Source of the DNA: Callorhinchus milii
Lineage: Eukaryota
Length of the DNA stretch: 64,000 nt
NCBI RefSeq assembly: GCF_018977255.1
Contig: NW_024704742.1
Span: 64,606,001-64,670,000 of the forward strand
Reading direction: 5' to 3'
Every line of letters begins with the position of its first letter. Within the stretch, counting starts at the first letter, position 1. Position numbers and translations under genes: made by a program. Under the pieces are notes generated by a model. The model saw only the letters and a list, made by a program, of their open reading frames with translations. It had not been told where the DNA came from and made no database searches. Positions 7,101 to 10,100 of the stretch are shown here, piece by piece.

Positions 7101-10100
7101 ACATAGTCCAGCATCCTGCTCATTTTGTCTCACACCGATGGACCTTGTAAGCATCAAGTCAGGCAACTCTCCAAGGCTTCTATCAACCTTCTTGCTGTGA
7201 CATTCTAGCCCATACAAAGAGTACAACAACAACTTGCATTTATATAGCGCCACTTATACAGGGTAGCGTCCCAGAGAACAAGACCTCCTGTTTTTATTTC
7301 CTATACAAAGTAGCTTGCATTTATCTTTATTGAATCTCATTTGTCAATGATTGAGCTATCTTTGTAAGACTCTGGCCATCTCCTCGGATTCCTGTCTCTT
7401 CCCTCAGTCCCCACCACTATCACCTCCAAAGCTTGGTGAAATCTTGAAATTTAACTACTTTGCACCAAGTCTGTGAATCATTAACACTTCAATAAAAACA
7501 ATTAATAGCTGTTAAAGCAGAATGCAGAAGTTTTTACAAGAAAATTGGATAAATTCTTAAAGAAAATAAAGAACATGGGGAAACGCAGGGGAATGGGACC
7601 AGAGAAGATAGCTCCAGTTGCTGAGCTGGTATAAGCACAGACACAATGAGCCAAATGGCTGCTTTTGTGCTGTAACCACTTGGTGATAATTGCACACTAG
7701 CAGAGAAAGCGAATTTCAGTTTGAATGTGAAAAGGTAAGAAAAAGGCAAAGTTAAATATGTTTGCTTATGTATTCTCACTTTGTCCACAACTATAGATTC
7801 CACAGCAGAAAGCTTGTCCCCATCCAGTGGGTGAGAGGTCACTATTGGCGATGGGCTGACTGTGTCTGTTGCAATTGTTGTACGGAACCTGTCCAGCAGG
7901 GAATACAATCTTTGGTGTCTGAAATGAAAAAATGCTGTCACTTAAGGTTAATGAAACTAATTAAACAAGACCTAGTGTCAGTTAATTTGTATTAGTGGGT
8001 AGCTCTCTCGCCTCCTCTAAGTTAGAGGGTTGTTAGGTCAAGCCCCACACCAGGATTTGAGCTCATGAACCAGGATGATGTTCAATTGCAGTGGTGAGGA
8101 GGGCTTCACTGTTGGCGGACTTCATCCGGATACATTATATCAAGATCCTGTTTTCCTTGTGCATCACATGGCACAGATTAGAGTCTGTCATTCATTTATT
8201 TGTTGATTGTGGCGTGCTGCTGAAGCAGATTAGCTACCACATTTACCTACATAAATGCACTTCAAAGTAACTCATAGTAAGAAGCATTTAGACATTAACA
8301 AAGGGCACTAGTCCATTTTTTTTAAAAAGGCCTACATTAAAGCTAGATGTCCAAGTTGTAACTTGCTAGTTTATTCTATCACAAAAATGATTACTGATAT
8401 CTGACCAAACAGAAATTCAACTTAATGAATGTGCCATATAATGGATCTGCAATTCAAACCCATTTAATAAATCCCTACATTTGGTATAGCTTCTTTCACA
8501 TCAAGAGGACATTCCAAAGTGCTTCATAAGATATATTGTGAAGTAACTGTTTCACAAGTATCTTGTGGGTAATGCCCACATTTGTTAATCATCAATTAAT
8601 AGCCCAAATTTACACCACTTTTGGTAAAAAGCAGAACTATCAACAGGCCATGAACCACATGGCTATTAAAAGGTTTGTAAAATAATACAGCATGGATGCA
8701 GTGAACTTTTGGAAACAAATAGCAATTGGGAAGAATATTCCTCCAGCATGAGAGAGTGCACTCATCTACAATCCGCTTTGTTCAGTCACGTTTTCATGCA
8801 TTTTGTGCCCAAGAATTCGTATTCTTAAACATCATATGGCTATATCACCATGTTGTGAAAATCCTGGCCGCTTCCCATGCAAAATGTGAATAAGGGAACC
8901 CCCATTTAATCAGTTCTGACGAAGGGTCGTGGACCCGAAATGTTGACTCACTTTCCTTTCTCCATTGATGCTGCCTGACCTGCTGAGTGTTCCCAGCTCG
9001 CTCCGTTTTTGTTTCAGATTCCAGCATCTGCAGTATTTTGTGTTTTGCCCCATTTAATCTCATCGCTCACGTATAACGTATAAAGTTGCATTCTATACAT
9101 CCCAATAAGTAAAATATCGGATACATTATCAGAACAAACTTAACTACCACATAGTCAGCGCGTGGCGTGGGGTCCACTCAGCAAACTCTCATGATGAAAA
9201 AGGTGGCCCTCAGCCAGCCCTTCGTGGCTGTTTTGACAATTGTAGCAAAATCTCTACAAGTAGAAATGTCAAGACATTTCCCAGTGTCGGCAATGCAATG
9301 AATTCCTTTTTACCTAATTCCAGAAATTACTCGGTGCAGGTTGGCAAGAGCCAAGGCTTAGGGATCCCAAAGTATGCACTGGTGTACAGCTGGAGTCTAA
9401 CCAGCTAAAACTACATTGTTTGCCACTGAGAGAACTGCCTGGAAATCTTTCCGCTGCTTGTCGAGCTAGCACCATCCCACCCGTGAGGGTTTTGGCTTGC
9501 AGTGTTAGCAGGAGCGAAGTAGGAAGCTCCCAGTGAGTGGTCTGCCACTCCAAGACCCGCTGATGAGCCAAGCTGGCTGATCTCTTGTCAAGTGTGACCC
9601 AGAATACTGCGGATCCACATTACTCAGGAACTCAACTATCAAGAAGATGGAATTGATTCCAACATTCCTTTGCAAAAATGTCACCTTGGAGCCAGATGAG
9701 TTCCAATGAGACCCCATCTACCTCTTATCCCCATCCAGAATATATCCATCCCCCCCATGCCAGGAGGATGGACACTAGTGGGCCATTTGACACCTGACAA
9801 GTACAGGTTTGAGCCCTCACAAGGTGGAGAGCAGGTACCGCAAACTCCCTGAGAGCTTCCTGGTGAGCAGCAAAGCTTAGCACGAAATGCATTAAGAGAC
9901 CTGCTACCATCCTCCTGTCCATAGCTGCCAATACAACAGATCTTTACTGTGTCAGAATTTGCAGGCAAGGCACATTTTTTCTTTGAAAATGAAGTAATAG
10001 TTGCATGCAATTGATTTCTTTGACCAATAGTTTCTGAGTATGGCAAACCCACAGTACCGCATAATTTGCTACCTTGAAGGTGGAAGCAGAATTGCTTGAT

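What the first reader, a model, noticed from the sequence alone, without database searches (positions are those of the whole stretch)
8900..9059. 136-bp mobile element that starts with a minimal hammerhead ribozyme and has a perfect 12-bp target-site duplication
Seen: an insert (8912-9047) in HTT intron 45 bracketed by identical CCCCATTTAATC. Its first 37 nt read AGTT-CTGACGA-A-GGGTC(GTG)GACCC-GAAA-TGTT-GACT, i.e. stem I, CUGANGA box, stem II, GAAA box, vestigial helix III and UH site. Established: Penelope-like elements and retrozymes carry minimal type I hammerheads with a palindromic ACGU helix III that cleave as dimers. Inference: this is a non-coding, ribozyme-bounded short retroelement mobilised by a Penelope-type RT. 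ACGT appears decayed to ATGT by CpG deamination in this copy. It lies antisense to HTT, so HTT pre-mRNA would not contain the ribozyme.
Basis: partly seen in the sequence, partly recalled or inferred. Interest (0 to 1): 0.75.

Follow-up and report, generated by a model that had tools for sequence, protein, structure and literature searches.

The report
Ribozyme-bearing end of a Penelope retrotransposon
This 136-base insert in a huntingtin intron is one of over a thousand leftover end-pieces of a Penelope-type jumping gene; it begins with a minimal self-cleaving RNA motif already known from such elements, so it is a new example of a known thing, though its copies record how these elements start and integrate.

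Summary
Observation confirmed: 8912-9047 lies between perfect 12-bp repeats, antisense in a huntingtin intron, and starts with a minimal type I hammerhead motif. Three related organisms show the empty site. The 136 bp is the terminal repeat (pseudo-LTR with 'tail') of an autonomous Neptune-type Penelope-like element, not a separate short element. Other copies run into an RT + GIY-YIG ORF on either side, one locus reads pLTR-ORF-pLTR, solo and ORF-linked majority sequences are identical, and no head-to-tail arrays were found. The ribozyme does not bound it: the predicted cut is internal (8944/8945), and 1 of 74 arms starts there against 27 of 74 at -2..+4, where a TATA-like box and an initiator suggest the transcription start. 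Most likely the RT started at the internal tail site of an uncut RNA and ran to its 5' end. This copy has a CpG-decayed helix III and no partner, and is probably inert. Rfam gives no hammerhead hit. Side result: two-armed insertions pair one tailed with one tail-less arm (26 of 26 classifiable), hinting at asymmetric twin priming.

The parts
8900..8911 (.). left copy of the 12-bp target-site duplication (AT-rich core)
   Evidence: one diverged copy of this target at the empty site in three related organisms
8912..9047 (+). solo pseudo-LTR (RNA 5' leader plus tail) of a Neptune-type Penelope-like retrotransposon; 5 differences from its subfamily majority
8912..8913 (+). family 5'-end hotspot; inferred transcription start (+1 A of an initiator-like CCAGTT in ORF-linked copies, TATA-like box about 29 nt upstream; neither upstream part was carried into this copy)
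   Evidence: the start-site reading is inference
8912..8948 (+). minimal type I hammerhead motif: stem I 8912-8915/8945-8948, CUGACGA 8916-8922, unpaired A 8923, stem II 8924-8928/8932-8936, GAAA 8937-8940, U16.1 8943, H17 8944; predicted cut between 8944 and 8945
   Evidence: anatomy as in PMC4209133
8940..8943 (+). palindromic helix III of the dimer form; C>T at 8941 turns ACGU into AUGU (about 4.3 kcal/mol weaker dimer by nearest-neighbour energy)
8967..9037 (+). predicted helix of 8967-8974 with either 9023-9030 or 9030-9037; present in both subfamily majority folds; role unknown
   Evidence: prediction only
9011..9017 (+). first family 3'-end cluster (tail-less ends; inferred RT start site 1), in a U-rich tract
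   Evidence: 38 of 89 direct arms end at element positions 95-112
9016..9047 (+). 'tail' (about 32-35 nt); second 3'-end cluster at its end (inferred RT start site 2), the end used by this copy
   Evidence: 39 of 89 direct arms end at 127-145; PMC11167929, PMC8557442
9048..9059 (.). right copy of the target-site duplication
   Evidence: junction identical in a contig of another sample of the same species (run X2, 9021-9362)
10344..10420 (-). 77-nt huntingtin exon upstream (in gene direction) of the host intron
   Evidence: neighbouring exon matches human huntingtin

Best explanation
The insert is a solo pseudo-LTR of an endonuclease-bearing (Neptune-type) Penelope-like element (PLE). SHOWN: the same 136 nt form both the 3' end and the 5' leader of an element that encodes RT plus a C-terminal GIY-YIG nuclease. 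The ORF's ATG lies about 35 nt behind position 136. Family copies end at two sites about 35 nt apart and begin preferentially at +1/+2. The site is empty in related organisms. INFERRED: the upstream repeat unit supplies a TATA-like box and initiator, so the PLE RNA starts at the first base of hammerhead stem I. The PLE protein nicks an AT-rich target with a stagger of about 12 bp, starts reverse transcription internally at the tail site of the 5' repeat of an uncut RNA, runs 136 nt to the RNA's 5' end and integrates. That leaves a promoter-less, dead-on-arrival fragment. In the active element the hammerhead is a weak, dimer- or protein-dependent ribozyme: a cut after position 33 would remove the cap from the 5' repeat and the RT start sites from the 3' repeat, or free a unit-length RNA for circularisation. 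In this copy it is single, antisense to HTT and CpG-damaged in helix III, so it is probably inert.
For: Of the top 30 loci, 9 share upstream sequence leading into a GIY-YIG C-terminus. A 470-aa stop-free stretch of one copy is 43% identical over 417 aa to a protein with Pfam RVT_1 and GIY-YIG and carries a C-x4-C-x2-C linker, the Neptune/Nematis mark in PMC8557442. L321 reads promoter-pLTR-leader-ORF-3'UTR-pLTR. L248 and L008 begin at +2 in unique flank and run through position 136 into the ORF start. Solo and ORF-linked majorities are identical. 5' ends: 27 of 74 arms picked on the 3' half lie at -2..+4, 1 of 74 at 33-35, 5 of 74 upstream, the other 41 scattered (P 3e-16 against uniform). 28 of 89 genome-order copies start exactly at +2. 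Loose ends pile at 8911-8913 in all four runs. The upstream box is TTAAAA in subfamily A and TTATAA in several subfamily B copies at the same spacing. 9 of 19 copies starting at +1 carry a G before it (background 26%, P 0.036), as a copied cap would give. TSDs of 11-16 bp in 7 of 25 solo copies against 0 of 600 mismatched pairs. Empty site in three organisms. PMC11167929 reports internal initiation at two sites that define the tail, AT-rich targets and uncut RNA as the main template.
Against: No RNA data: the start site, capping and cleavage are all inferred. The main 5' peak is +2, not the initiator's +1. The cap-G signal is weak and one of several positions examined. The same upstream sequence also reads as branch point + pyrimidine tract + CAG, a splice acceptor like the one at helix I in D. 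virilis Penelope. Pfam found nothing in the element's own four ORF pieces at E<=0.1; domains rest on homologues and visible motifs. 18 of 25 solo copies had no TSD of 9 bp or more by my strict test. No intact full-length element was found: L321 has internal deletions. Clade assignment rests on a motif, not a tree. The empty-site joint has only 36-42 letters on its shorter side.
Confidence: 0.88

Rival explanations
1. Independent non-autonomous short retroelement: the 136-nt RNA is made on its own, for example from truncated copies that kept the TATA-like box, and is copied in trans by the PLE protein.
For: Short copies outnumber upstream-linked ones (128 vs 63 of 191 distinct hammerhead starts). 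Ends are sharp on both sides. Promoter-bearing truncated copies exist. The unit holds both RT start sites. An internally deleted two-hammerhead unit of about 252 bp exists (L008/L055). A 2026 preprint (10.64898/2026.07.22.740005) derives animal retrozymes from PLE pLTRs.
Against: No sequence divergence between solo and ORF-linked copies. 0 head-to-tail junctions in G000 for the exact pattern used. Solo copies lack the upstream box, so they cannot breed by the same promoter. L248 and L008 show +2 starts on ORF-bearing RNA.
Confidence: 0.08
2. Same PLE origin, but the 5' boundary is set by RNA processing rather than by transcription start: a 3' splice site at CAG/TTCTGA, or nuclease trimming to the base of the 5' hairpin. 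(Confidence is for the boundary mechanism; it is compatible with the PLE assignment.)
For: Pyrimidine tract, CAG and a branch-like CTTAA/CTTAT about 28 nt upstream are conserved in both subfamilies. In D. virilis an intron ends at helix I (PMC4209133). The +2 G peak could be the last G of an exon. The first 37 nt fold as a hairpin.
Against: No shared exon sequence lies upstream of solo copies: the bases before +2 are mixed (22 C, 16 T, 13 G) and TSDs abut within 0-3 nt. 19 copies include the A at +1 and 18 the C at 0. No clear cluster of 5' ends at the would-be branch point.
Confidence: 0.2
3. The hammerhead-like motif is a chance or non-functional feature of the PLE terminus.
For: Rfam gives no hammerhead hit. 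The predicted lowest-energy monomer and dimer folds are not the catalytic fold. Published minimal hammerheads cleave weakly or not at all (1 of 9 active).
Against: All core bases, the unpaired base before stem II and the palindrome match the published PLE consensus. Two subfamilies (1009 and 234 exact pattern hits) differ at 5 of 37 motif positions against 3 of 100 downstream. All five spare the core: one double-sided G-C to A-U change, one wobble to Watson-Crick, two loop changes; 0.5% of random 5-change sets do so.
Confidence: 0.07

Closest known systems
Minimal hammerheads (min-HHR) in the pLTRs of metazoan Penelope-like elements (Cervera and De la Pena 2014, PMC4209133)
   Same: Type I core, short helix I (4 bp), unpaired base between positions 9 and 10.1, palindromic 15.2/16.2 with no loop 3, mostly single dispersed copies from truncated PLEs, several sequence families per genome.
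   Different: The main text I read names bony fishes, coelacanth, Xenopus and reptiles but no cartilaginous fish (supplements not seen). Stem II is 5 bp. Subfamily B has A-U rather than the conserved G-C as first stem II pair if one base is taken as unpaired.
Neptune-clade EN+ PLEs (as described in Craig et al. 2021, PMC8557442)
   Same: Single ORF with RT then C-terminal GIY-YIG, Cys-rich linker, pLTR formed by partial tandem, frequent 5' truncation, inverted 5' arm, 30-40 bp tail at one end, start site in the pLTR.
   Different: Here the commonest product is the bare 100-140 bp terminus with a sharp 5' end at the hammerhead's first base. Clade not tested by tree.
Poseidon_Ac of the green anole (Frangieh et al. 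2024, PMC11167929)
   Same: Two internal RT start sites that define the tail, AT-rich target, uncut RNA as main template, hammerhead shortly upstream of the start sites.
   Different: In PAc the ORF starts inside the hammerhead and the start sites lie 111-118 nt into the ORF. Here the ATG lies about 35 nt behind the tail, so hammerhead and start sites sit in the 5' leader, and the RNA at the start sites is U/G-rich.
Non-LTR retrozymes of animals (PMC7229834, search listing only; preprint 10.64898/2026.07.22.740005)
   Same: Short non-coding unit with a type I hammerhead, related to a PLE pLTR; monomers dispersed over chromosomes.
   Different: Retrozymes are defined by tandem units with a hammerhead in each. 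No head-to-tail junction of this unit was found, and it has not diverged from the parent element.

Membership tests
PLE minimal type I hammerhead | Core CUGANGA, GAAA, UH in type I order | tested here: met
   kept in both subfamilies
PLE minimal type I hammerhead | Stem II and short stem I with structure-keeping variation | tested here: met
   one double-sided change and one wobble-to-WC change between two subfamily majorities; only two subfamilies compared
PLE minimal type I hammerhead | Unpaired base between 9 and 10.1 | tested here: met
   A at 8923
PLE minimal type I hammerhead | Palindromic helix III for dimer formation | tested here: inconclusive
   met in the family majority (61 of 89 ACGT); not met in this copy (AUGU)
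PLE minimal type I hammerhead | Match to an Rfam hammerhead model | tested here: not met
   whether Rfam models cover minimal forms at all was not checked
PLE minimal type I hammerhead | Self-cleavage as dimer or with the PLE protein | not testable with these tools
   bench assay needed
EN+ Penelope-like element (pLTR of) | Contiguous with a single RT + C-terminal GIY-YIG ORF | tested here: met
   direct Pfam scan of the element's own pieces was blank
EN+ Penelope-like element (pLTR of) | Direct repeats flanking the ORF (partial tandem) | tested here: met
   L321; pLTR-ORF junctions in L176, L180, L181, L186, L190
EN+ Penelope-like element (pLTR of) | Optional 30-40 bp tail and inverted 5' arms | tested here: met
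   two 3'-end clusters about 35 nt apart; 40 of 89 copies have an inverted arm
Neptune clade | CX2-5CxxC linker between RT and EN | tested here: met
   C-x4-C-x2-C in L003, L121, L128; also marks the Nematis clade
Neptune clade | Placement in an RT phylogeny with named reference elements | not tested
Non-LTR retrozyme | Head-to-tail tandem units, each with a hammerhead | tested here: not met
   0 junctions for an exact pattern with a gap of 0-30 nt; one internally deleted 252-bp two-hammerhead unit seen (L008)
Non-LTR retrozyme | Abundant circular RNA | not testable with these tools
   no run on record as RNA holds the stretch
Independent non-autonomous element (SINE-like) | Own lineage distinct from the autonomous partner | tested here: not met
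   identical majority of 13 solo and 7 linked copies; small sample of the closest copies

The most novel reading that the evidence does not exclude
The copies of this family are a natural readout of the still unsolved PLE integration cycle. (a) The mRNA is capped at the first base of hammerhead stem I, so the ribozyme is a built-in decapping switch at the extreme 5' end, and only uncut RNA is copied. (b) A dimeric PLE protein primes both nicked target strands on RNA, one at each of the two start sites, and the two cDNAs are joined head to head. This would explain why two-armed insertions pair one tailed with one tail-less arm (26 of 26 classifiable cases; 1 exception in a second set of 28). 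(c) Truncated copies that kept the TATA-like box may feed 136-nt RNAs into this cycle in trans, a nursery stage of retrozymes.
Probability: 0.35. Interest if true: 0.6.

Novelty: new member of a known kind. Interest (0 to 1): 0.3.

Why it matters
As a feature of the huntingtin locus it matters little: one antisense, probably inert fragment among more than a thousand. Minimal hammerheads in PLE termini have been known since 2014. Its value is as an entry to a family whose ends are unusually sharp. The 5' ends place a likely transcription start on the first base of the ribozyme and argue against ribozyme-cut RNA as the usual template, in line with the in vitro result for the anole element. The strict pairing of tailed with tail-less arms gives a testable model (asymmetric twin priming by a dimer) for the complex inverted insertions of PLEs.

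Tried and rejected
Rfam scans: no hammerhead family at E<=10 for the window copy or five other loci; the hits returned are below gathering score and look like chance or hairpin artefacts. Folding z-score of the 136-mer: uninformative. Direct Pfam scan of four stop-free ORF pieces: blank. Ribozyme cut as the 5' boundary: rejected (1 of 74 arms at 33-35). Retrozyme-type arrays: 0 hits; the pattern was exact, so diverged arrays or longer spacers are not excluded. A third hammerhead subfamily: a search with a diverged copy returned only about 80% matches; I did not analyse those 25 loci on their own, though they entered the pooled count. An HDV-like ribozyme starting at the +2 G: considered by eye and dropped, no nearby partner strand; not computed. 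A 5'-leader intron ending at the acceptor-like AG just before the ATG: no conserved donor and no spliced copy seen by eye. Expression: no RNA holder listed, which says nothing either way. Empty allele within the species: none seen in the single run laid (X2); contigs show presence, not absence. Sense/antisense bias in introns: not testable without annotation. Earlier findings of the scan: none returned. Literature searches found no paper describing this family or the tailed/tail-less pairing as a count; Repbase and Dfam could not be searched, and the family may be catalogued there.

Full report
Observation. The window holds an identical 12-mer at 8900-8911 and 9048-9059 around a 136-bp insert. 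Its first 37 nt have the anatomy of a minimal type I hammerhead: 4-bp stem I, CUGACGA, one unpaired A, 5-bp stem II, GAAA, two bases, UU and the closing strand of stem I. A descriptor for this anatomy finds this one site in the window and none in 30 resampled windows. Rfam does not recognise it, and its folding energy is unremarkable. The host gene is huntingtin on the minus strand. The insert lies in the intron behind a 77-nt exon at 10420-10344; 'intron 45' agrees with human numbering as I recall it and was not tested. The organism is a vertebrate with a genome of about 1 Gb; I take it for a cartilaginous fish from recall, and no call names it.

It is an insertion. Contigs from three related organisms (X10, X11, X20) join 8902 to 9074 with 15 letters between that resemble one diverged copy of the target (36-42 letters on the shorter side, likeness threshold 80). 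A contig from another sample of the same species crosses the right junction without a difference (4 of the 24 listed runs were laid). The family is abundant in all four runs. In G000, a degenerate 33-nt pattern of the motif has 1009 exact hits with 0 for the control, and a second subfamily has 234. These are lower bounds. This copy differs from its subfamily majority at 5 of 136 positions. TSDs of 11-16 bp were found in 7 of 25 one-armed copies, against 0 of 600 mismatched flank pairs; 18 had none of 9 bp or more by that strict test.

It is the terminus of an autonomous Penelope-like element. Nine of the 30 best loci share upstream sequence: a pyrimidine-rich 3' UTR of about 330 nt and then the end of a GIY-YIG nuclease frame. 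Walking upstream gave RT motifs and the N-terminus. A 470-aa stop-free stretch is 43% identical over 417 aa to a protein with Pfam RVT_1 and GIY-YIG; all 28 long homologues share the same precomputed families. Pfam itself scored none of the element's four pieces. A C-x4-C-x2-C linker points to the Neptune (or Nematis) clade as described in PMC8557442 (passages read); no tree was built. Downstream, several loci continue from position 136 through about 35 nt to the ORF's ATG. L321 reads promoter end, pLTR, leader, ORF with deletions, 3' UTR, pLTR. So the 136 nt are both the 5' leader and, in tandem, the 3' end of the element. The majority sequences of 13 solo and 7 ORF-linked copies are identical (10 of the 30 loci were left out for length differences, duplication or a wrongly picked copy, or as the query itself). 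An exact pattern for head-to-tail junctions finds nothing. This argues against a separate short element or retrozyme array, though the samples are small.

The 3' end. Among 89 genome-order copies (90 examined, 1 unmapped), 38 direct arms end at positions 95-112, 39 at 127-145 and 12 elsewhere. Two ends about 35 nt apart are the known PLE tail, which PMC11167929 (parts 1-2 of 4 and passages read) traces to two internal RT start sites. The window copy uses the distal one. Forty of the 89 carry an inverted arm at the 5' side. In 26 both arms could be classed, and all 26 pair a tailed with a tail-less arm (16 + 10; P 3e-8 if independent); the other 14 had an arm ending elsewhere. In a second set picked for a tailed direct arm, 27 of 28 inverted arms lack the tail and one (L168) has it. 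PMC8557442 notes that the tail is often at one end only and ascribes it to nuclease resolution of an intermediate. With a protein that nicks and extends both strands and is predicted to be a dimer, asymmetric twin priming is the simpler reading to me. That is inference.

The 5' end. If ribozyme-cut RNA were the template, copies should start at position 34. In 46 insertions picked on the 3' half, 27 of 74 arms start at -2..+4, 1 at 33-35, 5 further upstream and 41 are scattered. In the genome-order set 58 of 89 start at -2..+4 and 28 exactly at +2; that set required positions 4-36, so it cannot show later starts. Loose ends pile up at 8911-8913 in all four runs. ORF-linked copies have an initiator-like CCAGTT around +1 and an A-rich box 29 nt upstream, TTAAAA in one subfamily and TTATAA in several copies of the other; the consensus forms of TATA box and initiator are from my own knowledge. 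Nine of 19 copies that start at +1 have a G before it (26% expected, P 0.036), weak support for a copied cap. L248 and L008 start at +2 in unique flank and run on into the ORF start, so +2 is a 5' end of ORF-bearing RNA. The rival is a splice acceptor at the same place, as in D. virilis; no shared exon sequence precedes the solo copies, which speaks against it.

The ribozyme. The features listed in PMC4209133 (parts 1-2 of 4 read; supplements not seen, and they may list this lineage) are met by the family majority. The two subfamilies differ at 5 of 37 motif positions and 3 of the next 100 (Fisher P 0.03). The five are a double-sided change of the first stem II pair, two loop bases and a wobble-to-Watson-Crick change in stem I; 0.5% of random five-change sets keep the motif. 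The second pattern was written from two observed copies, so only the between-subfamily contrast counts, and it is one comparison. Helix III is ACGT in 61 of 89 copies and decays about equally to ATGT (14) and ACAT (13), as neutral CpG deamination would give. The window's AUGU weakens the modelled dimer by 4.3 kcal/mol. In all three sequences the predicted lowest-energy folds are not the catalytic one, which fits the weak, dimer- or protein-assisted activity reported for such motifs (1 of 9 dimers active in the 2026 preprint, parts 1-3 of 5 read, supplements closed). Activity was not tested here.

Verdict. Real, well-bounded and correctly spotted, but a solo pseudo-LTR of a Neptune-type PLE with a known kind of minimal hammerhead: a new member of a known kind. 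Six literature searches found no description of this family; PMC6155905 was seen as passages only, and Repbase and Dfam were out of reach. Interest 0.3. The family-level patterns (start at the ribozyme's first base, uncut template, tailed/tail-less arm pairing) would deserve about 0.6 if confirmed.

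Noticed in passing
two-armed insertions in L061-L090, L206-L265, L031-L060, L159-L175: One arm carries the 35-nt tail and the other does not in 26 of 26 classifiable cases and 27 of 28 in a second set; TSD-like repeats flank several whole two-armed units (seen by eye).
   Followed up: partly
L008/L055 (G000:C1241, about 15750-16140) and L009 (same contig, about 13010): Internally deleted element: pLTR, about 110 nt of leader and ORF start, then a second pLTR 252 bp after the first; two hammerheads in tandem, a possible seed of a retrozyme-like unit. 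A near-identical inverted locus lies 3 kb away.
   Followed up: partly
L240, L212 and similar 'solo' copies: Tiny inverted arms of about 9 nt between the TSD and the 5' end, too short for BLAST; many apparent solos may be two-armed (seen by eye).
   Followed up: no
L186/L321, L180, L190 just before the ORF's ATG: A pyrimidine tract and AG directly precede the start codon, like a splice acceptor; no conserved donor or spliced copy was seen.
   Followed up: partly
window 8967-9037: A helix between positions 56-63 and either of two partner stretches inside the tail is predicted in both subfamilies; it may position the two RT start sites.
   Followed up: no
window 33700-37120, 1389-3023, 11800-12350, 40000-44000, 60250-61000: Copies of a LINE with endonuclease-like and RT-like frames (L2/CR1-like by my recall); the one at 33.7-37.1 kb looks nearly full length and explains the strong C skew at 34-36 kb.
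   Followed up: no
window 9304-9510, 9620-9890, 8440-8550: Other high-copy repeats in the same intron, shared with the three related organisms (depth peaks; self-hits).
   Followed up: no
window 9069-9082: A 7-bp tandem duplication just right of the TSD; it may account for most of the 8 extra bases skipped at the empty-site joint.
   Followed up: no
window 57002-57565 (minus strand): A long Ser/Thr-rich open frame, probably a large N-terminal huntingtin exon.
   Followed up: no
L128 1-891 (G000:C17:14174500 onward): A 297-aa stop-free stretch beside a PLE copy, probably a large host exon.
   Followed up: no
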